64,000 nt of DNA, from NCBI GenBank assembly GCA_050331175.1, contig JBHJHC010000021.1:7206-71205 (forward strand). The letters run 5' to 3'. This document shows positions 1 to 10,314 of the stretch, piece by piece (positions within the stretch are counted from its first letter, which is position 1; each line of letters begins with the position of its first letter). This DNA comes from Rubrobacteraceae bacterium. GTDB lineage: Bacteria > Actinomycetota > Rubrobacteria > Rubrobacterales > Rubrobacteraceae. The position numbers and the translations under genes were made by a program. Below the pieces are notes generated by a model. It saw nothing but the letters and a program-made list of their open reading frames with translations. It ran no database searches and was not told where the DNA came from.

Positions 1-1
1 C

Positions 2-841
2 TCCTGGCAGCTAAAGGGCAGCTATCCAAAGATCCTGGACGACCCGGAGAAAGGCGAAGAAGCCCGAAAGCTCTTCACGGAATCCCAGGCCCTGCTCGAC
101 CGGGTAATAGAAGAGAAGTGGCTCACGGCCCGCGCCGTCCTCGGCCTCTTCCCCGCGAGCCGGCTGCCGAACGATTCCGTCGAAGTCTATACAGACGAAT
201 CGCGCAAAGCGGTGCTCGCGCAACTCCACTTCCTCCGCCAGCAGAAGCAGAAGCCACCGGGCCGCCCGAACCAATCCCTCGCTGACTTCATCGCCCCGAA
301 GAGCACCGGATTGGAAGACCACATCGGTCTCTTCGCGGTTACCGCCGGCATCGGGGCGGACGAGATAGCGCGCCGCTTCGAGGAGGAGAACGACGTCTAC
401 AACGCGATTATGGTAAAGGCACTCGCCGACCGGCTCGCCGAAGCCTTCGCCGAGCTGCTGCACCAGCGGGTCCGCAAGGAGTTCTGGGGCTACGCGGCGG
501 ACGAAAGCCTCTCTAACGAGAGCCTGATCCGGGAGGAGTACCGGGGCATCCGTCCCGCCCCCGGCTACCCGGCCTGCCCGGAACATACAGAGAAGCGCAC
601 GATCTGGAACCTGCTCGAGGTGGAGAAAAACGCCGGCATCTCCCTTACCGAAAGCTGCGCCATGAACCCCGGCGCGGCGGTCAGCGGCTACTACTTCTCC
701 CACCCGGACTCCCGCTACTTCGGCGTCTCCGAGATCGGGCGCGACCAGGTAAGAGACTATGCGGAGCGCAAAGGTATGCCCCTGGAGAAAGCCGAGAAGT
801 GGCTCTCCCCAAACTTGAGCTACGACCCCGAACGCGATTAG
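2..841 (+). CDS. metH: Cobalamin-dependent methionine synthase MetH, C-terminal AdoMet-reactivation domain (5' end outside window)
   Basis: The frame is open from the window edge. The translation SWQLKGSYPKILDDPEKGEEARKLF..AVLGLFPA..LRQQ..GYPACPEHTEK..AVSGYYFSHPDSRYFGV matches conserved MetH activation-domain blocks. Confidence 0.9.
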   Translation, partial: SWQLKGSYPKILDDPEKGEEARKLFTESQALLDRVIEEKWLTARAVLGLFPASRLPNDSVEVYTDESRKAVLAQLHFLRQQKQKPPGRPNQSLADFIAPKSTGLEDHIGLFAVTAGIGADEIARRFEEENDVYNAIMVKALADRLAEAFAELLHQRVRKEFWGYAADESLSNESLIREEYRGIRPAPGYPACPEHTEKRTIWNLLEVEKNAGISLTESCAMNPGAAVSGYYFSHPDSRYFGVSEIGRDQVRDYAERKGMPLEKAEKWLSPNLSYDPERD

Positions 842-843
842 CA
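797..843. repeat. Left copy of a 47-bp direct repeat (last codons plus stop of metH)
   Basis: AAGTGGCTCTCCCCAAACTTGAGCTACGACCCCGAACGCGATTAGCA recurs at 1707-1753 with 2 mismatches. Confidence 0.9.
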
Positions 844-873
844 TTCACAGCCAAACATCTAATCCAGGGACGC

Positions 874-1203
874 CTACAGCGGCAGGAAGAGCTTCTGTCC
901 GGCCATATCTGGCGGATCGCCCACCATCGAGACGAATTCCAGATCGCGGACGCAATCGCCGATGGAAACGCGAAGTTGGTGGGCGTAGATCACGCCGGCA
1001 AACGACTGTCCTCGCCGCTGGCGGTGCGTCGCTTCGACAAGCAGATCATCATCTTGCGTAAAGAGCACCCGGTCCAGCTCGGTCGCACGCTCCAGCAACT
1101 CAGGATCCTGCAAGTGTCCGGCACCGTCCTCGGCAGCCGTAATCACGTCTACTCCGCGCAATTTCAGCCCGTTGGTGATCGCCCGCGGTACGTGGTGGTC
1201 CAT
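874..1203 (-). CDS. DUF5615-family PIN-like putative toxin
   Basis: 109 aa. The pattern D.HVPRAI..LK.RGVDV....DPELLE.A.ELDRVLFTQDDDLL is typical of DUF5615 (Mut7-C-like) proteins. It lies 17 nt downstream of a DUF433 gene. Confidence 0.6.
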   Translation of the reverse strand: MDHHVPRAITNGLKLRGVDVITAAEDGAGHLQDPELLERATELDRVLFTQDDDLLVEATHRQRRGQSFAGVIYAHQLRVSIGDCVRDLEFVSMVGDPPDMAGQKLFLPL

Positions 1204-1220
1204 GTAGAGCCGTAGCGGCG

Positions 1221-1529
1221 TTACCGCCCTCCCCTGGCTCTCATGCGCTCGGCGAGTGAAGAGCTGCGGACATCACCACTCAATTCGGTCAAGCGTTCAA
1301 GACGCCGCTGAATGTCGCGGTCGAACTCTTCACGATGGTCCCAGTAATAGGCGAGGGCGGAGTGGATCTGTCCGAGATCCAGATAAGGATGCTGGAAACG
1401 CAGTTCTTCGGGACTCCACCCGTAAGCCTGTTGCTCGACTACCAGTTCCACGACCTTCATCGTCGTTCCGGCAATGTTGGGCACGCGCTCCTCGTCCAAT
1501 ACGATGTGTTCGTAGCGCGTCTCCATCAT
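1221..1529 (-). CDS. DUF433-family putative antitoxin
   Basis: MMETRYEHIVLDEERVPNIAGTTMKVVELVVEQQAYGWSPEELRFQHPYLDLGQIHSALAYYWDHREE matches the DUF433 pattern. I chose the ATG at 1529 because it follows a GGAGG; the ORF track extends to 1613. Confidence 0.6.
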   Translation of the reverse strand: MMETRYEHIVLDEERVPNIAGTTMKVVELVVEQQAYGWSPEELRFQHPYLDLGQIHSALAYYWDHREEFDRDIQRRLERLTELSGDVRSSSLAERMRARGGR

Positions 1530-1610
1530 GCCTCCATCATACCGCAGCGACCACCCGAAGTAGTCAACTCCACAACCTCCGGTAGCTGATGGCCAAAGGC
1601 CTGATCGCAA

Positions 1611-1751
1611 CATACCCTGGTTTCCGCTACTTCGGCATCCCAGATCAGACGCGGCCAGGTCAAAGGCTACACCAGGCGCCAGGACACGGCGCTAGAAGAT
1701 ACCAAAAAGTGGCTCTCCCCGAACTTGAGCTACGACCCCGAACGAGATTAG
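1611..1751 (+). pseudogene. Displaced, frameshifted relic of a metH 3' end
   Basis: It translates as ..TYPGFRYFGI, then after a 1-nt frameshift as QIRRGQVKGYTRRQDTALEDTKKWLSPNLSYDPERD*. This aligns position for position with the intact MetH tail RYFGVSEIGRDQVRDYAERKGMPLEKAEKWLSPNLSYDPERD*. Confidence 0.6.
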
Positions 1752-1753
1752 CA
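1707..1753. repeat. Right copy of the 47-bp direct repeat
   Basis: 45 of 47 positions are identical to 797-843. Confidence 0.9.
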
Positions 1754-1811
1754 ACATCTTGATGTCCGAATTCCGCCAGTAATCTGCTGCAGCCGGTGGC
1801 ACAATTAGCTC

Positions 1812-3296
1812 ATGGTTGAAGACTTCGAGGGTTGTTATAGGGCGGCGAGCAGCCGCGACGCCCGCTTCGACGGGTGGTTTATCGTGGCGGTTACCACGGC
1901 GGGCATCTACTGCCGGCCGAGTTGTCCGGCGATCACGCCGAAGCGTCGGAACGTCCTTTTCTATCCGACGGCGGCCGCGGCCCAAGCGGCGGGGTTCCGG
2001 GCATGTTTGAGGTGCAGCCCGGATGCGGCGCCGGGATCTCCGGAGTGGGACCTGCGGGCGGACGCAGCGGGGCGGGCGATGCGCCTGATCAACGACGGCC
2101 TCGTGGATCGGGAAGGTGTGGCCGGCCTGGCCCGCAGGCTCTCCTACACCGAACGGCACCTGGGCCGGGTGCTGCTGGACGAGCTTGGAGCCGGGCCACT
2201 GGCGCTCGCCCGGGCCCGCAGGGCCCACACGGCCCGGCTGCTCGTCGAGACTACGGATATGCCCGCCGGTGAAATCGCTTTCGCCGCCGGCTTCTCCAGC
2301 ATCCGGCAGTTCAACGAGACGTTCCGCGAGGTCTTCGCCGCAACCCCCACGGAGCTGAGACGCAAAACCCGTCGCGGCGGGTCATCGGTTCCGGGATCTC
2401 TCACCCTGCGGTTGCCCTTCCGCGAGCCTTTCGACGCCGAGGGCCTGTTTCGTTTTCTCGGAGCCCGGGCCGTTCCGGGGATCGAGGGGTTCGACGGCGA
2501 ATGCTATCGTCGCACGCTCCGGCTGCCGAATGGCGCGGGCGTGGTCGGGCTGTCCGGAGAGGGCGGACACGTACGCTGCACCCTCCGGCTCGAGGACCTG
2601 CGGGATCTGGGTCCGGCGGTCGAGCGCTGCAGGAGGCTCCTGGATCTGGACGCGGATCCGGTGGCCATCCGGGAACAACTGGGCTCGGACCCGGTTCTGG
2701 GTTCGCTCGTACGCGAGACACCGGGACGGCGCGTCCCGAGGAGCGTGGCCGGTGACGAGCTGGCGATGCGGGCGATTCTCGGGCAGCAGGTCTCGGTAGC
2801 GGGGGCCCGAACCCTGGCCGAAAGGCTGGTACGCCGCTGCGGCCAGCCGCTACCCGACTCTCTGGTCGATACTGGCGGCAACCTGACACATCTCTTCCCG
2901 GACCCGTCAAGCGTCGCGGATACCAGCCTCGGAGACCTGGGCCTCCCGAGGAGCCGGCAAGAGGCGTTGAAAGGGCTGGCCCGGGAACTCGCCTCCGGGG
3001 AGTTGGTCCTGGACCCCGGCGTGGATCGCAGAGACGCTGAAACGCGCCTCCGGTCCATTCGGGGGATCGGCCCCTGGACAGCATCCTACGTGGCGATGCG
3101 AGCCCTGGGCGACCCTGACGCGTTCCCGGATACGGATCTCGGGGTCCGGCGCGCCGTCAGGCTCCTCGGTGGCGATGGTACCCCAGCCTCCACGTTCCGG
3201 CTCGCCCGGCAATGGAGGCCCTGGCGGTCCTACGCTACCCAGTATCTGTGGGCCAGCCTCGACAAACCTCGCAAACAGAAGGGAGAAGTAGCATGA
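1812..3296 (+). CDS. alkA: Ada-type Zn-finger/AraC HTH regulator fused to DNA-3-methyladenine glycosylase II (AlkA)
   Basis: The N-terminus has the Ada Zn-binding motif YCRPSCPA...CLRC. The middle has an AraC-type HTH (IRQFNETFREVF). The C-terminus has an HhH-GPD glycosylase region (IRGIGPWTASYVAMRALGDPDAFPDTDLGV). Confidence 0.85.
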   Translation: MVEDFEGCYRAASSRDARFDGWFIVAVTTAGIYCRPSCPAITPKRRNVLFYPTAAAAQAAGFRACLRCSPDAAPGSPEWDLRADAAGRAMRLINDGLVDREGVAGLARRLSYTERHLGRVLLDELGAGPLALARARRAHTARLLVETTDMPAGEIAFAAGFSSIRQFNETFREVFAATPTELRRKTRRGGSSVPGSLTLRLPFREPFDAEGLFRFLGARAVPGIEGFDGECYRRTLRLPNGAGVVGLSGEGGHVRCTLRLEDLRDLGPAVERCRRLLDLDADPVAIREQLGSDPVLGSLVRETPGRRVPRSVAGDELAMRAILGQQVSVAGARTLAERLVRRCGQPLPDSLVDTGGNLTHLFPDPSSVADTSLGDLGLPRSRQEALKGLARELASGELVLDPGVDRRDAETRLRSIRGIGPWTASYVAMRALGDPDAFPDTDLGVRRAVRLLGGDGTPASTFRLARQWRPWRSYATQYLWASLDKPRKQKGEVA

Positions 3297-3811
3297 AAGC
3301 CTACCTCGACACCGTAGAGACGCCCGCCGGGCCGTTAACGTTCGCGCTCAACGGAGAGGGAGCGCTGATACGCTCCCATTTCGAGGAATCCGACGACCAC
3401 TCGGACATCGAGGACGGGCTCCGCGCTGCCGGTTACGAGTGTTTCGTCCAGGACTCCGGCCGCACGGCACGGCTCAGGGGGGAGATCTCGGAGTATTGCG
3501 CGGGCGAGCGGCGCGAGTTCACCGTACCGCTGGCCGCCTCCGGCACGGAATGGCAGAAAGAAGTTTGGGCGGCGTTGACGCGCATCCCGTTCGGTGAAAC
3601 CCGCAGTTACGCCGAGATAGCAGACACGATCGGGCGTCCCGGCGCGGCGCGGGCCGTGGGCGGGGCGAACGCCCGCAACCAGTTGCCGCTGGTGGTGCCG
3701 TGTCACCGCGTGATCTCGGCGGACGGCTCGCTCGGCGGCTTCAACGGCGGCCTCCACCTCAAGCAGAGACTTCTGGAACACGAACGCCAGGCCACGCTCC
3801 AGGAACCCTAG
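3293..3811 (+). CDS. ogt: Methylated-DNA--protein-cysteine methyltransferase
   Basis: Contains the active-site PCHRV motif (VVPCHRVISADGSLGGF). The ATG overlaps the alkA stop (ATGA) and is preceded by GGGAGAAG. The ORF track start at 3212 is probably too long. Confidence 0.85.
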   Translation: MKAYLDTVETPAGPLTFALNGEGALIRSHFEESDDHSDIEDGLRAAGYECFVQDSGRTARLRGEISEYCAGERREFTVPLAASGTEWQKEVWAALTRIPFGETRSYAEIADTIGRPGAARAVGGANARNQLPLVVPCHRVISADGSLGGFNGGLHLKQRLLEHERQATLQEP

Positions 3812-3823
3812 AAACACCCTGCC

Positions 3824-4459
3824 TTATTCGAACCGTACTTCTTCGTAGCCGAGCGTGGTGAGGAAAGTTCGGACGGTATCTTGGGCGTTCAGGTCGGCGG
3901 TGGCGAGGATGTCGTTCCGGCGGGCGGCGGCCAGCAGCTCGTCCCGGGCGTCCCGGCGGGCCTCCTCGACGAGGGCGTCATCCGGGCGCAGGTTCAAGAG
4001 ACCCTGGTCCCGGTCGTAGAGGCGGGTCTTGTCTTCGTCGAGGCTGACGGAGGAGATCTGGGGCTCTGGAAGCCGGATCTCGACGCCCTCACCCTCGACC
4101 CGCACGTCGCTTTCGGAGATATCCGACAGGTCTACACCGGCTTCTACCTCGCCGACGGCCAGCAAAACCAGTTCCTCCCCCGTGAGCAGCCGCCGTAGTT
4201 CGGGGCCGTCGGTCTCCTTCGTGACGATGACCGATTCCGTCAGGCGCACGGTGTCGAGCCGGTCGAGCTTCTGGATGCCTTCCACCACGACCGGTCCGGT
4301 GGTCGTCTGCGACCGGCCCTCTCCGAAGAGCCACCCGACCACCGGCAGACTCCCCCCGTAGCGGGACAACCCGAGGCCGAGGCCAACAGACAGGACGACC
4401 ACCAGCAGCGCGAGCACCAGGGTGGTCCCCAACCCGCCGCTTCTCTTGCCTTTCTCCAA
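3824..4459 (-). CDS. DUF4230-like membrane-anchored protein
   Basis: One N-terminal TM segment, then VVEGIQKLDRLDTV...VGEVEAGVDLSDI...VEIRLPEPQI, which resembles DUF4230 (from memory). I prefer the TTG at 4459 (AGGAGG 5 nt upstream) over the ATG at 4501. Confidence 0.5.
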   Translation of the reverse strand: MEKGKRSGGLGTTLVLALLVVVLSVGLGLGLSRYGGSLPVVGWLFGEGRSQTTTGPVVVEGIQKLDRLDTVRLTESVIVTKETDGPELRRLLTGEELVLLAVGEVEAGVDLSDISESDVRVEGEGVEIRLPEPQISSVSLDEDKTRLYDRDQGLLNLRPDDALVEEARRDARDELLAAARRNDILATADLNAQDTVRTFLTTLGYEEVRFE

Positions 4460-4491
4460 CCTTGCCTCCTGAAGGACGTGCGTATGTAAAA

Positions 4492-4500
4492 ATTCTATCA
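4492..4500 (-). promoter_or_regulatory. Candidate extended -10 promoter element (TGATAGAAT)
   Basis: The minus-strand sequence TGaTAGAAT sits about 30 nt upstream of the TTG start of the DUF4230 gene. There is no good -35. Confidence 0.3.
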
Positions 4501-4552
4501 TCTGTCGAAATCGCGCTTTATACCTCGCCGCCGCTACAAACGTACCCGGCCC

Positions 4553-6085
4553 TTACCCGGCTCGCGAAACCCGGCCATCTATAAGAAAAGCCGCCAGCAG
4601 CCCGACCATGGAGACTACTACGCACAACAACATGGCCCCGTCGAACCCGTACAAGAACGCTTCCCGGACTATCCTCTCTACCTGTCCGGCTACCTCGGGA
4701 GCCAGGCGCGTAAGCTCGGCTTCGGCAGCCTCCGATCCAGATAGGAGTCCCCGAACCTCCTTACGATCCGGGTCGCTGAAGTTTGACCCGGCGCCGGTAA
4801 ACAAGCTCGCCAGCTTGTTGCTCTCCAGCGCCTTGAAGAACCCCCCGGCCATGGCGATACCGAAGACAGATCCTATATGACGGACCATAGACAACGTGCC
4901 CGAGGCTACACCCGCCTTGTCTTCCGGGATCACCGACATCCCCCCGGTCGTCGCGGCGGTAAAGGACAGGCTCCGGCCTACGCTCGCCAGGATGAGGGCG
5001 GCGATCACGAGGGCCAGGCCGCTAGTGGGGGTGAGGCGGGTCAGCATGAAGTACGACACCGCTCCCACCACCATACCGATAGCCAGCGGGATACGCGGTC
5101 CGATCACACCCTCCAACCAGCCCGCGAGCGGATTACCGACGACAAACAGGCCCGACAGCGCCAGAAACACGAGGCCGGTTTGCATCGGCGAGTAGCCGAG
5201 CACGTTCTGGAGGTAGAGCGTGAGCAGAAACATCATCGTATAAAGACCGAAGTTCTGGGAAAAAGAAGCCACGTTGGCCCCGAAATAGCTCCAGTTGCGA
5301 AAAAGACCCAGGTCTACCAGGGGTTCCCGCAACCGCGGCTCGACGACAACGAAGAGCCCGAGCAGAACCAACGCGACGACGGTACAGCCGACGATGACCG
5401 GCGAACCCCACCCCAGGGTGCCACCCTGCTGGACGGCCACCACCAGCGCCGTAAGCCCTCCGGTAAGGGTGAGCAGGCCGGCCAGATCCACGTGCCGCCC
5501 GACGGTCTCATCCCGGGACTCCCGCACCAGGATCAGGGTCAGGCACACGATCACCAGCGCAACGGGTATGTTGACGTAGAAAAACCAGCGCCAGGACAGA
5601 TAACTGGTGAGAAAACCTCCGATAAACGGCCCGACGGCGGCTCCCGCCCCGGTAGTACCGGCCCACACTCCTATTCCTTTGCTGCGTTCCACCGGGGGGA
5701 CTGCGTTGCTGACGATCGACAACGAAGCTGCGAAGAACGTGGCGCCCCCCAAACCCTGAACGGCGCGGGCACTTATCAGCCACCAGTCGGTCTGGGCCAT
5801 CCCGCAGATAGCTGAAGCCACGATGAAGATGACCATGCCGATCAACAGCACCCGGCGGCGCCCGAAGATGTCGGCCAGACGTCCGACGGCCACCAACGGG
5901 GTGGCGGAGGCCAGCAGGTAGGCGTTGATCGTCCACTGCAAACCCGTGGTCGAAGCACCCAGGTCCCGGCCAATAGTTGGTAGCGCAACCGTGAGCCCGT
6001 TAACGTCGACTATCACGAGGGTGGCGGCCAGCGACATAAGGACCACGGTCCACCACTTGCGGTTACGTTCACTCACCATCGACAC
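4553..6085 (-). CDS. MFS transporter, DHA2 (EmrB/QacA-like, 14-TMS) family, copy 1
   Basis: 510 aa and hydrophobic throughout. Contains the MFS motif GRLADIFGRRRVLL. It is a close paralogue of 6262-7785. Confidence 0.8.
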   Translation of the reverse strand: MSMVSERNRKWWTVVLMSLAATLVIVDVNGLTVALPTIGRDLGASTTGLQWTINAYLLASATPLVAVGRLADIFGRRRVLLIGMVIFIVASAICGMAQTDWWLISARAVQGLGGATFFAASLSIVSNAVPPVERSKGIGVWAGTTGAGAAVGPFIGGFLTSYLSWRWFFYVNIPVALVIVCLTLILVRESRDETVGRHVDLAGLLTLTGGLTALVVAVQQGGTLGWGSPVIVGCTVVALVLLGLFVVVEPRLREPLVDLGLFRNWSYFGANVASFSQNFGLYTMMFLLTLYLQNVLGYSPMQTGLVFLALSGLFVVGNPLAGWLEGVIGPRIPLAIGMVVGAVSYFMLTRLTPTSGLALVIAALILASVGRSLSFTAATTGGMSVIPEDKAGVASGTLSMVRHIGSVFGIAMAGGFFKALESNKLASLFTGAGSNFSDPDRKEVRGLLSGSEAAEAELTRLAPEVAGQVERIVREAFLYGFDGAMLLCVVVSMVGLLAAFLIDGRVSRAG

Positions 6086-8919: not shown

Positions 8920-8979
8920 ATATGCTCCCTTCGGCCGTGATGCGACGTATCAGGGTACGGAGAACTACTTCGCCACTGT

Positions 8980-10314
8980 TCATGCCGGGGAAAGCAAGAA
9001 GGTCGGGGCCATGCTGCCACCCTGGGTGACGTTCGTAACTCCCCCGAGGCTCATCCGGGTGAGGATACCGACCATCTTGCCGCGGAACATAAACGGGTCG
9101 GTGTCGAGATAGAAGTCCTGTAGCGGAAATCCCGGTTTATCCAGCGCAAACTTCTCGTGGTGCGCCACGATCCTCTGCTGGACAACATGATCTTCGCCTA
9201 CAGCATCCGCGACGACCTTCTCCCACTCGCCAAGCTCCATCTCCCAACCGAGGTGGACATTGCTCCCGCCGTAATCGTGCGTGGGTTTAATCACGAGTGA
9301 AGTGCGGTGCTCTAGCACGTAGCCCTCCGGCACGGTGTCTGCGGCTCCGGGATCGCCGTCCCGGACCAACCTCTTGGTCCAGGGTACGTGATTGCGAACC
9401 GCGTTGCGCTCGGCGCTGCCCAGCCCGAAGTCGTGCTCCGGACTGGTGAGCAGGGCGAAGGCGGATTTATGACCTATAAGATCGCTGACAAAAGGGTTTA
9501 CCAGACACACTGCCCCGGCCCGGGCCGCGTCCACCAGGGTTTTCGTCGCATCCGGCCAGGCTAGGCAGTCCTGTATCATAAGCCGCCGGTAGACGAGGTC
9601 TATCGAGGTCGATTCGGCCACGAGCCGCTCTCCATCGAACGAGAGGCTCCGGGGATCGCAGATCATGGTCTGAATACCGGCCTCGACGAGGTGGTCCCGG
9701 ATGATCTCGAACTCCGGCATCAGCAGTCCATCCTTCCAATCCACAATGGCGATTACGGGGTCCCCTTTCCCTCCCCAGTCGCGCCAGGTGTCAAGAAAGG
9801 CTTCCATCAGCGAGTTCTTGACGAGCAGCGGTCGCGCATCATAGTCTTGGGTGAACCGCTCGTAGACGTGGGTCTGCGCAAACGCTTCCGCTGCTTCATC
9901 GTGGTACCCGATACCACCGGGAGCAGCACCTTGGACCTCGACGAAATCGAGCTTTTTACCGAAGAACGCGTCGTAGCGGTCAAGCACGTCGACATTCTCG
10001 AATCCCGGGTCGATCGTGACCAGTTCACGCTCGGCTTCGCCCACGCCAAGCCCCTCGAGCAGTGATGGGTCCGCGTGCAGGCCAGCCAGGACTTTCGCGA
10101 GCGCCGAGCCGACAAGCGAGGTGGCGAGGCGCTCGACCTCGTAGCGTACCGGGGTCACGAAGTGCGGCCGGGCAACCGTAAACACCCGCCGATCGCCGAA
10201 GGTCACAATGCCGCGCAGACGTTCGAGTCCGGGGTCCGATCCGGGGGTCTCGTGCAGCAGTTGGTGCCAGCGTGAAATAGCCTCCACGCGCAAAGCGGCA
10301 TCGTCACTCGGCAC
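8980..10314 (-). CDS. ATP-grasp-superfamily amide-ligase-like protein (glutathionylspermidine-synthase-like or circularly permuted ATP-grasp-like), function unknown
   Basis: 444 aa. The blocks VNPFVSDLIGHKSAFALLTSPE, LVIKPTHDYGGSNVHLGWE, HVVQQRI and GILTRMSLGGVTNVTQGG resemble that family. This assignment is from memory and has not been searched. Confidence 0.4.
   Translation of the reverse strand: MPSDDAALRVEAISRWHQLLHETPGSDPGLERLRGIVTFGDRRVFTVARPHFVTPVRYEVERLATSLVGSALAKVLAGLHADPSLLEGLGVGEAERELVTIDPGFENVDVLDRYDAFFGKKLDFVEVQGAAPGGIGYHDEAAEAFAQTHVYERFTQDYDARPLLVKNSLMEAFLDTWRDWGGKGDPVIAIVDWKDGLLMPEFEIIRDHLVEAGIQTMICDPRSLSFDGERLVAESTSIDLVYRRLMIQDCLAWPDATKTLVDAARAGAVCLVNPFVSDLIGHKSAFALLTSPEHDFGLGSAERNAVRNHVPWTKRLVRDGDPGAADTVPEGYVLEHRTSLVIKPTHDYGGSNVHLGWEMELGEWEKVVADAVGEDHVVQQRIVAHHEKFALDKPGFPLQDFYLDTDPFMFRGKMVGILTRMSLGGVTNVTQGGSMAPTFLLSPA

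What the first reader, a model, noticed from the sequence alone, without database searches (positions are those of the whole stretch)
797..1753. Toxin-antitoxin cassette bracketed by a duplicated metH 3' end (integration scar without a recombinase)
Seen in the sequence: the last 47 bp of metH, including the stop, recur at 1707-1753 with 45 of 47 positions identical. Upstream of the second copy, about 100 more bp still translate as a diverged MetH tail. About half the residues are identical position for position, but reading it requires a 1-nt frameshift, so it is a displaced and decaying original 3' end. The roughly 860 bp between the copies contain only a DUF433/DUF5615 pair.

Established knowledge: elements that integrate into the 3' end of a gene carry a replacement 3' end and leave the old one as a flanking direct repeat.

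Inference: this is either a minimal or eroded integrative element, or a TA cassette mobilised in trans. No integrase or transposase is present.
Basis: partly seen in the sequence, partly recalled or inferred. Interest (0 to 1): 0.6.

Follow-up and report, generated by a model that had tools for sequence, protein, structure and literature searches.

The report
Toxin-antitoxin insert duplicating metH end

Summary
The metH 3' end (about 644-846) recurs at about 1566-1756. The core is 45/47 identical (48/50 if extended). The part upstream of the core is decayed and frameshifted, yet still significantly metH-like (z = 12.5). Only an intact DUF433 antitoxin / DUF5615 PIN-like toxin pair lies between the copies.

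But this is not a recent or eroded integrase element.
- The same junctions occur in two other Rubrobacteraceae assemblies (G008 and a metagenome contig), so the insertion is old and shared.
- In those two, the second tail differs from the first almost only at synonymous sites, so it has been overwritten by functional alleles.
- In G000 the near-identical core is a homogenised patch (P about 1e-6).
- Two other family members carry different cargo bracketed by metH-tail relics of other lengths.
- Across 117 homologous TA loci from many phyla, 10% are tightly bracketed by direct repeats, against 0.3% of control windows. In the cases checked the repeats are locus-specific.

The best fit is "insertion with long target duplication" (Nobusato 2000; Furuta 2010), here carrying a TA cargo. 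Interest is moderate. The scan had not noted this bracketing before.

The parts
2..841 (+). 3' part of metH (B12-dependent methionine synthase, activation domain). The window starts inside the gene. Stop codon at 839-841.
   Evidence: Pfam Met_synt_B12, 397 bits. 80-87% DNA identity to metH of 8 congeners.
644..846 (+). Copy 1 (c1) of the duplicated target: the last ~200 nt of metH plus a few nt past the stop. It is the functional copy.
   Evidence: The left limit is set by where the second copies of G008 and L141 begin (CTnACCGAAAGC).
797..846 (+). Core, copy 1. It is 48/50 identical to 1707-1756.
842..873 (.). 32-nt spacer between the metH stop and the toxin stop. It contains AACATCT..AT, which is shared with L141 and resembles the start of the alkA upstream region after copy 2.
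   Evidence: The suggestion that the duplication ran ~15-25 nt past the stop rests on a short match and is only suggestive.
874..1203 (-). Toxin gene, 109 aa: DUF5615 / COG4634, Mut7-C-type PIN-like protein. Intact.
   Evidence: Pfam PF18480 at 36.3 bits. All positions conserved at >=95% in 159 homologues are kept, except R14K, and the acidic residues D19, D26, D33, D51, D53, E57 and D87 are present.
1221..1529 (-). Antitoxin gene, 102 aa: DUF433 / COG2442, a helical DNA-binding domain. Intact.
   Evidence: Pfam PF04255 at 29.1 bits. Conserved residues are kept. PIN-COG2442 was predicted as a type II TA by Makarova 2009.
1530..1565 (-). TA leader and spacer. GGTATGATGGAGG lies just before the antitoxin start and is conserved in G000, G008, L141 and G019. 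The GAAGTAGTC spacer is shared with L141.
   Evidence: No sigma-70 consensus promoter was found, so the promoter position is inferred only.
1566..1756 (+). Copy 2 (c2), the metH-tail relic. 1566-1613 is barely recognisable. 1614-1706 has 62 matches and 32 mismatches, with indels that shift the frame. 1707-1756 is the core (48/50).
1754..1811 (+). Conserved upstream region of the ada/alkA gene. In all congeners the variable cargo ends here.
   Evidence: Matches to G001, G007, G003, G005 and G008 start at window 1754-1762.
1812..3296 (+). Ada-AlkA fusion gene (Ada Zn-binding, AraC HTH, AlkA_N, HhH-GPD). It is the right-hand neighbour and not part of the insert.

Best explanation
What it is: a minimal type II toxin-antitoxin cassette, running from the toxin stop codon to about 40-80 nt upstream of the antitoxin start. 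It was inserted once, in an ancestor shared by several Rubrobacteraceae lineages, at the metH/alkA junction. The insertion duplicated about 200 bp of target DNA (the metH 3' end), so metH stayed intact. This is 'insertion with long target duplication', the recombinase-free mode described for restriction-modification modules.

Likely mechanism (inferred): a recombination or repair event, such as a staggered break with fill-in, or homology-anchored capture of incoming DNA. It is not site-specific recombination.

What happened afterwards: the two direct repeats kept interacting by homologous recombination.
- In G000 the upstream part of the second copy decayed (frameshift, many amino-acid changes), while the last ~47 bp were homogenised with the functional copy.
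- In relatives the second copy was overwritten by functional metH alleles.
- In most congeners the cassette is not present (lost, or never there; not distinguished here).

How the pair works (inferred from family knowledge, not shown): as an addiction module. The DUF433 protein would bind and neutralise the PIN-like nuclease and repress the operon.
For: 1. Anatomy: direct repeats bracket only the TA pair, and no mobility gene is on the contig.
2. Shared junctions: G008 (same genus) and L141 (metagenome contig) have metH-TA-tail with the same left limit of the second tail, the same antitoxin leader and a related stop-to-stop spacer.
3. Empty site: G001 has a single tail followed by TetR-MFS. 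G008 has tail-TA-tail followed by the same TetR-MFS, collinear over 1.7 kb.
4. Codon differences between the two tails (synonymous-only codons / amino-acid-changing codons):
   - G008 22/7, with pS 0.69 and pN 0.05.
   - L141 12/1.
   - G000 8/34.
   - Functional orthologue pairs give 20/3 to 25/7.
5. The second tails are no closer to each other than to first tails.
6. Core homogenisation: G000 has 2 mismatches in 47, P = 1e-6 at the relic's own mismatch rate. G008 has an identical 44-nt block, chosen post hoc (P = 5e-5). The cores differ between genomes by 20-30%.
7. Other cargo at the same gene end, with other duplication lengths:
   - G013 has a 443-aa ORF plus a decayed relic.
   - G119 has an AAA_16 ATPase plus a Uma2 fragment plus a relic of about 105 nt.
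8. Family-wide pattern: 12/117 de-duplicated loci of close toxin homologues from many phyla are bracketed within 300 bp by direct repeats of >=30 bp at >=85% identity. Control windows give 30/10066. With looser criteria it is 17/117 against 45/9057.
9. Repeat copy number in four cases checked: two repeats have only the two flanking full-length copies (L122; L140, plus one 30-nt partial match). A third (L129) has two full copies, though its first ~30 nt occur elsewhere. The fourth (L111) is a dispersed repeat.
10. Several repeats span gene ends (L140, L186, L205) or gene starts (L096, L099).
11. No tyrosine recombinase lies on the TA contigs of five such genomes.
12. Literature: Furuta 2010 describes repeats of >=30 bp, variable length, no mobility genes, often spanning start or stop codons.
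Against: [quoted passage not shown]
- The mechanism of long target duplication is unknown, so 'not site-specific' is an inference from absence.
- Three cargos at one gene end, and a possibly similar left limit of the G013 relic, could point to a preferred site.
- The near-identical core is also what attL/attR would look like.
- Some bracketed loci in the survey are something else. L088, L179 and L185 have palindromic attC-like repeats. L111 is a dispersed repeat with 45 copies. L069 and L125 have flanking paralogues. The true fraction of target duplications is therefore lower than 10%.
- TA function is untested.
Confidence: 0.6

Rival explanations
1. A non-autonomous integrative element (CIME-like), mobilised in trans by a tyrosine or serine recombinase encoded elsewhere. 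The 47-bp core would be attL/attR, and the diverged tail would be the arm of the element's attP.
For: - Direct repeats with a sharply more identical core.
- G000 has about 7 tyrosine and 7 serine recombinase genes elsewhere.
- The metH 3' end is used by three cargos in the family.
Against: - No recombinase lies near metH in six genomes.
- The core occurs nowhere else in G000.
- Cores are genome-specific rather than conserved.
- The junctions are shared, which implies a single old event rather than repeated integrations.
- A fixed crossover cannot explain second tails that carry fresh, functional-looking sequence.
- Homologous cassettes elsewhere have unrelated repeats of 31-234 bp and no integrase on the contig.
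Confidence: 0.15
2. Campbell-type single crossover. A circularised fragment from a related donor, carrying the donor's metH tail plus the adjacent TA (the G019-like layout), recombined by RecA with the resident metH tail. Repeated in-and-out cycles would shuffle the two tails. This is a specific mechanism within the recombination-based family of explanations.
For: - Both tails in G008 and L141 look like functional alleles of different lineages.
- Identity rises towards the 3' end, as expected if crossovers exchange the right-hand parts.
- G019 has metH-TA without a second tail.
- TA and metH similarities are mildly incongruent. G000-G019 TA is 82% against G000-G008 76%, while metH is 80% against 82%.
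Against: - It does not explain how the first metH-TA linkage arose.
- It does not explain why unrelated loci in other phyla show the same architecture with near-identical repeats.
- The shared left limit of the second tail needs a single founding event anyway.
Confidence: 0.15
3. A purely local rearrangement. The TA was already downstream of metH, a tandem segmental duplication copied tail plus TA, and the second TA copy was then deleted.
Against: - It needs two precise steps.
- The second tails of G008 and L141 differ from the first at synonymous sites only, which is not the pattern of an in-situ copy decaying neutrally.
- It does not explain the family-wide enrichment of bracketing repeats.
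Confidence: 0.05
4. Assembly artefact of a metagenome-assembled genome.
For: G000 is a 139-contig MAG with 4% contamination.
Against: - The repeats are only 76% identical over 130 nt, and the identical core is shorter than assembler k-mers.
- The same architecture is present in three independent assemblies.
Confidence: 0.02

Closest known systems
Insertion with long target duplication of restriction-modification gene complexes (Nobusato et al. 2000, Gene 259:99; Furuta, Abe & Kobayashi 2010, NAR 38:2428, PMC2853133)
   Same: - A selfish two-gene addiction module with no mobility gene.
- It is flanked by locus-specific direct repeats of >=30 bp and variable length (here about 200 bp; 31-234 bp at other loci).
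- The repeat is single-copy at the empty site of a relative.
- The repeats span a stop or start codon, so the target gene survives.
   Different: - The cargo is a type II TA pair, not an RM system. The 2014 review by Mruk & Kobayashi ascribes this mode only to RM systems.
- The event is old. The repeats have since diverged, been partly homogenised, and in relatives been overwritten by foreign alleles.
- The idea that restriction cleavage drives the insertion cannot apply as such.
PIN-like (COG4634 / DUF5615, Mut7-C group) - COG2442 (DUF433) predicted type II TA systems (Makarova 2009, PMC2701414; Matelska 2017, PMC5499597)
   Same: Gene order, sizes, Pfam matches above cut-off, and conserved acidic residues.
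   Different: Nothing notable in the proteins. Toxicity is untested. No solved structure of the toxin family was found by sequence, and the fold search was inconclusive.
Integrase-mediated elements that target the 3' end of a gene and carry a replacement end (known cases, from memory: e14 and phage 21 in icd; ICESt1/CIME in fda)
   Same: A duplicated gene 3' end as direct repeats, with the gene kept intact.
   Different: No integrase in or near the unit in any genome examined. No conserved att core. The duplication length varies between cargos.
Integron gene cassettes carrying TA pairs
   Same: Some homologous cassettes (L088, L179, L185) are flanked by ~135-bp palindromic attC-like repeats in array-like contexts.
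   Different: The metH case has no attC-like palindrome and no array; its repeats are coding sequence of metH.

Membership tests
Type II TA, PIN-like (DUF5615/COG4634) with DUF433/COG2442 antitoxin | Two small adjacent co-directional genes, antitoxin first, each matching its family model above the curated cut-off | tested here: met
   DUF433 29.1 bits (cut-off 23.6); DUF5615 36.3 bits (cut-off 23.8); 17-nt gap between the genes.
Type II TA, PIN-like (DUF5615/COG4634) with DUF433/COG2442 antitoxin | Conserved acidic active-site residues of the PIN-like toxin are present | tested here: met
   D19, D26, D33, D51, D53, E57 and D87 are kept. The only change at a >=95% conserved position is R14K.
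Type II TA, PIN-like (DUF5615/COG4634) with DUF433/COG2442 antitoxin | PIN-like fold of the toxin | tested here: inconclusive
   AlphaFold model: pLDDT 73.8, pTM 0.65. Foldseek against PDB: best E 0.13; PIN, NYN and PRORP entries appear only among weak hits.
Type II TA, PIN-like (DUF5615/COG4634) with DUF433/COG2442 antitoxin | Toxin is toxic and is neutralised by the cognate antitoxin | not testable with these tools
   Needs expression assays.
Insertion with long target duplication (Nobusato/Furuta) | The inserted unit holds the complete module and no mobility gene, and is under 20 kb | tested here: met
   The ~700-bp insert holds only the TA pair.
Insertion with long target duplication (Nobusato/Furuta) | Flanking direct repeats longer than 30 bp that are unique to the locus | tested here: met
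   About 200 bp originally. The core 47-mer is found only at the two flanks in the 3.85-Mb assembly.
Insertion with long target duplication (Nobusato/Furuta) | A related genome has the repeat once and no insert (empty site) | tested here: met
   G001 is an empty site for G008: single tail followed by TetR-MFS, against tail-TA-tail followed by TetR-MFS. For G000 itself only the single-copy tail in 6 congeners was shown; a metH-alkA empty junction was not found.
Insertion with long target duplication (Nobusato/Furuta) | At the time of insertion the two repeats are copies of the same target | tested here: inconclusive
   The event is old. The repeats now differ (G000 decayed; G008 and L141 differ at synonymous sites), which requires later recombination.
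Integrase-mediated integrative element / CIME | A recombinase gene inside or next to the element, in this genome or in relatives with the same site | tested here: not met
   No PF00589 or PF00239 match on contig C21. None near metH in G001, G003, G007, G008 or G013.
Integrase-mediated integrative element / CIME | A conserved att core shared by independent occupants of the site | tested here: not met
   The cores are identical within a genome but only 70-80% identical between genomes. The relics of G013 and G119 have other limits.
Integrase-mediated integrative element / CIME | Excision to a circle with a crossover in the core | not testable with these tools
Integron gene cassette | An attC-type imperfect palindrome at the cassette end, within an array | tested here: not met
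   The repeats are metH coding sequence. No inverted repeat of that kind appears in 1-4000.

The most novel reading that the evidence does not exclude
[quoted passage not shown] That would make this insertion mode a general property of addiction modules. Highly conserved gene ends such as the metH 3' end in Rubrobacteraceae would then act as recurrent landing pads, because they offer a homology anchor and the duplication keeps the gene intact. The duplicated tails would afterwards serve as substrates for loss, gene conversion and exchange with relatives.
Probability: 0.3. Interest if true: 0.7.

Novelty: new member of a known kind. Interest (0 to 1): 0.5.

Why it matters
How chromosomal toxin-antitoxin pairs move between genomes without transposases or integrases is still unclear. 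This locus gives a TA counterpart to the 'insertion with long target duplication' known for restriction-modification systems, a mode whose mechanism has been open since 2000.

It offers three things:
- A dated series: a decayed copy, fresh-looking copies, a copy-less state and other cargos at one gene end.
- A family-wide signal: about 10% of loci are bracketed, against 0.3% of controls.
- Concrete predictions that can be tested in competent laboratory strains.

It also warns annotators. A short gene-tail relic with a near-identical core can result from gene conversion between old repeats, and need not be a recent integration scar.

Tried and rejected
- **Integrase or serine recombinase next to the site.** None on the contig or near metH in relatives.
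- **Other copies in G000.** No other copy of the 47-mer, of the tail, or of the TA pair.
- **Genome-wide screen of G000 for similar short direct repeats 0.3-20 kb apart.** It found paralogue families, tRNA-like repeats and one classical 11-kb integrase element flanked by 77-bp tRNA-like direct repeats. It found no second gene-tail/TA case.
- **Relic downstream of the TA in G019.** None; the alignment score is within shuffles.
- **Clean empty sites for other bracketed loci (L122, L135) in species-level relatives.** Too divergent or rearranged to read.
- **Sigma-70 promoter scan of 700-1900.** No site.
- **PDB sequence search for both proteins.** Nothing.
- **Fold search of the toxin model.** Not significant.
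- **Plasmid collection.** Only 34%-identical homologues on Thermus and Halocatena plasmids, so no vehicle was identified.
- **Pandey & Gerdes 2005.** I recall it mentions repeats around TA loci, but the paper is not held, so this is unverified memory.
- **Literature search on homology-facilitated illegitimate recombination producing duplications.** Nothing usable.
Full report
**Observation.** The window is G000:C21:7206-71205, from a 139-contig, 62.8% G+C assembly. Close matches place it in the Rubrobacteraceae.
- The window opens inside metH (Met_synt_B12, 397 bits; stop at 839-841).
- The last 47 nt of metH (797-843) recur at 1707-1753 with 45/47 identity, or 48/50 when extended to 846/1756.
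- Upstream of the second copy, 1614-1706 aligns to 702-796 with 62 matches, 32 mismatches and 2 gaps, and the indels shift the frame.
- Without the core, this stretch still scores z = 12.5 against metH, above all 1000 dinucleotide shuffles.
- The 47-mer occurs nowhere else in the window or in the 3.85-Mb assembly.
- Between the copies lie only a DUF5615 PIN-like gene (874-1203, minus strand) and a DUF433 gene (1221-1529, minus strand), both above Pfam cut-offs.
- Both keep the residues conserved in about 150 homologues.
- The right-hand neighbour is an Ada-AlkA fusion, followed by ogt.

**Relatives with the same structure.** Among 8 congeners, 6 have a single metH tail and no TA at this site.
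- G008 (same genus) has metH tail, then TA, then a second tail of 200 nt with an intact frame. After that comes TetR-MFS.
- G001 has a single tail followed directly by the same TetR-MFS. The second tail of G008 plus 1.5 kb downstream is collinear with the G001 tail plus downstream. G001 is thus an empty site for G008.
- A metagenome contig (L141) has the same layout. Its second tail is 131 nt long, 90% identical to its first tail, and truncated on the 3' side.
- G019, from another genus, has metH-TA with no second tail.

**One founding event.** The junctions are shared.
- The antitoxin leader is conserved in all four genomes.
- The second tail starts at the same metH position (about -200 from the stop) in G008 and L141. 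G000 has a decayed version of it, plus a spacer motif shared with L141.
- The 30-nt spacer between the metH stop and the toxin stop is related in G000, L141 and G008.

The insertion therefore happened once, and long ago. TA DNA identity among these genomes is 74-82%, similar to metH at 78-85%.

**History of the two tails.** Codon differences between the first and second tail are as follows:

| Comparison | Synonymous-only codons | Amino-acid-changing codons |
|---|---|---|
| G008, tail 1 vs tail 2 | 22 | 7 |
| L141, tail 1 vs tail 2 | 12 | 1 |
| G000, tail 1 vs tail 2 | 8 | 34 |
| Functional metH tails of different species | 20-25 | 3-7 |

- For G008, pS is 0.69 and pN is 0.05.
- A copy decaying in place should gain more replacement than silent changes. 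The second tails of G008 and L141 must therefore carry sequence that was recently part of a working metH of another lineage.
- The second tails are no closer to each other than to the first tails. That fits repeated overwriting by homologous recombination. For example, DNA from TA-less relatives has a tail-plus-downstream segment that is collinear with the second tail.
- In G000 the second tail has really decayed, except for the core. Two mismatches in 47 has P of about 1e-6 at the relic's own mismatch rate.
- The core sequence is genome-specific. G000's two cores share variants that no other genome has, and so do G008's two cores.
- The core is thus a homogenised patch (gene conversion or a crossover tract), not residual similarity and not a conserved att site.

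**A recurrent target.**
- G013 (another genus) has a 443-aa ORF between metH and a decayed tail relic.
- G119 (a third genus) has an AAA_16 ATPase gene and a Uma2 nuclease fragment between metH and a relic of about 105 nt. Its two contigs overlap by 127 nt.
- In other congeners the gap between metH and alkA holds a split GmrSD gene (G007), 13 kb with IS110 and ISL3 transposases (G003), or TetR-MFS (G001).
- No tyrosine recombinase lies near metH in any of these genomes.
- G000 has recombinases, but none on this contig.

**The TA family at large.** I fetched 160 loci of close toxin homologues (60-86% amino-acid identity) from many phyla.
- After removing near-duplicates, 12 of 117 testable loci are bracketed within 300 bp by direct repeats of >=30 bp at >=85% identity.
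- The rate for equally sized control windows in the same loci is 30 of 10066.
- With looser criteria the figures are 17/117 against 45/9057 (earlier versions).
- The repeats are unrelated between loci and 31-234 bp long.
- Several repeats are gene ends with a terminator (L140), gene 3' ends (L186, L205) or gene 5' ends (L096, L099).
- Whole-genome checks of four repeats gave a mixed result. L122 has only the two flanking copies, as does L140 apart from a 30-nt partial match. L129 has two full copies, with its first ~30 nt also found elsewhere. L111 is a dispersed repeat with 45 copies.
- L088, L179 and L185 have palindromic attC-like repeats, so they look like integron-type arrays. The class is heterogeneous.
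- No tyrosine recombinase lies on the TA contig in five bracketed genomes.

**Comparison with what is known.**
- The pair belongs to the PIN-COG2442 TA class predicted by Makarova 2009. Matelska 2017 places the toxin in the Mut7-C group of PIN-like domains.
- The architecture matches 'insertion with long target duplication': an addiction module without mobility genes, flanked by long, variable, locus-specific repeats that often span a start or stop codon so that the target gene survives (Furuta 2010).
- A 2014 review ascribes this mode to RM systems only.
- I therefore file the locus as a new member (TA cargo) of that known kind.
- The integrase-type reading fails two defining tests: no recombinase, and no conserved core.

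**Limits.**
- The mechanism of long target duplication is unknown.
- No conspecific empty site exists for G000 itself.
- The toxin fold search was inconclusive, and TA activity is untested.
- The suggestion that the duplication extended about 15-25 nt beyond the stop rests on a 10-nt motif.

Noticed in passing
G000:C56:6621-17692 (outside the window): An 11-kb segment is flanked by 77-bp direct repeats (92% identical) that look like tRNA gene ends. It holds a tyrosine integrase (8929-10092). This is a classical integrative element and a useful contrast to the metH case.
   Followed up: partly
L023 (G007) 3233-4792: In congener G007 the gap between metH and alkA holds a GmrSD-type (type IV restriction) gene split into two ORFs (192 aa N-terminal part, 320 aa C-terminal part), probably frameshifted.
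   Followed up: partly
L030 (G013) 1393-3040; L234/L233 (G119): Two other Rubrobacteraceae genera carry different cargo between metH and a metH-tail relic. G013 has a 443-aa ORF with a weak metallophosphoesterase hit. G119 has an AAA_16 ATPase plus a Uma2 nuclease fragment. The duplication lengths differ from the TA case.
   Followed up: partly
L088, L179, L185 (Desulfobacteraceae-like contigs): Homologous TA cassettes and a neighbouring VapBC-like pair are separated by ~135-bp repeats whose ends are inverted repeats of each other (attC-like). This suggests chromosomal integron-type cassette arrays.
   Followed up: no
L096 2070-2303 and 3743-3969 (Tectomicrobia MAG): A 234-bp duplication (96.6% identical) of the 5' end of a flavin-oxidoreductase-like gene brackets the TA pair. 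The left copy has small indels, so this looks like a young long target duplication at a gene start.
   Followed up: partly
L003 (G008) 1321-1500: The second metH tail of G008 is an open 59-codon frame starting at an ATG. It lies only 22 nt from the antitoxin start, so the TA promoter there must lie inside the relic, or the operon is read through from the upstream TetR gene.
   Followed up: no
G000:C61:5044-6025 (outside the window): Two 135-bp direct repeats (96% identical, 847 bp apart) flank a 120-aa ORF whose N-terminus resembles nitrile-hydratase-type leader peptides.
   Followed up: no
window 3212-3296: The longest ogt reading frame (3212-3811) overlaps the end of the ada-alkA fusion gene (1812-3296) by 85 nt. 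The true ogt start is probably further downstream.
   Followed up: no
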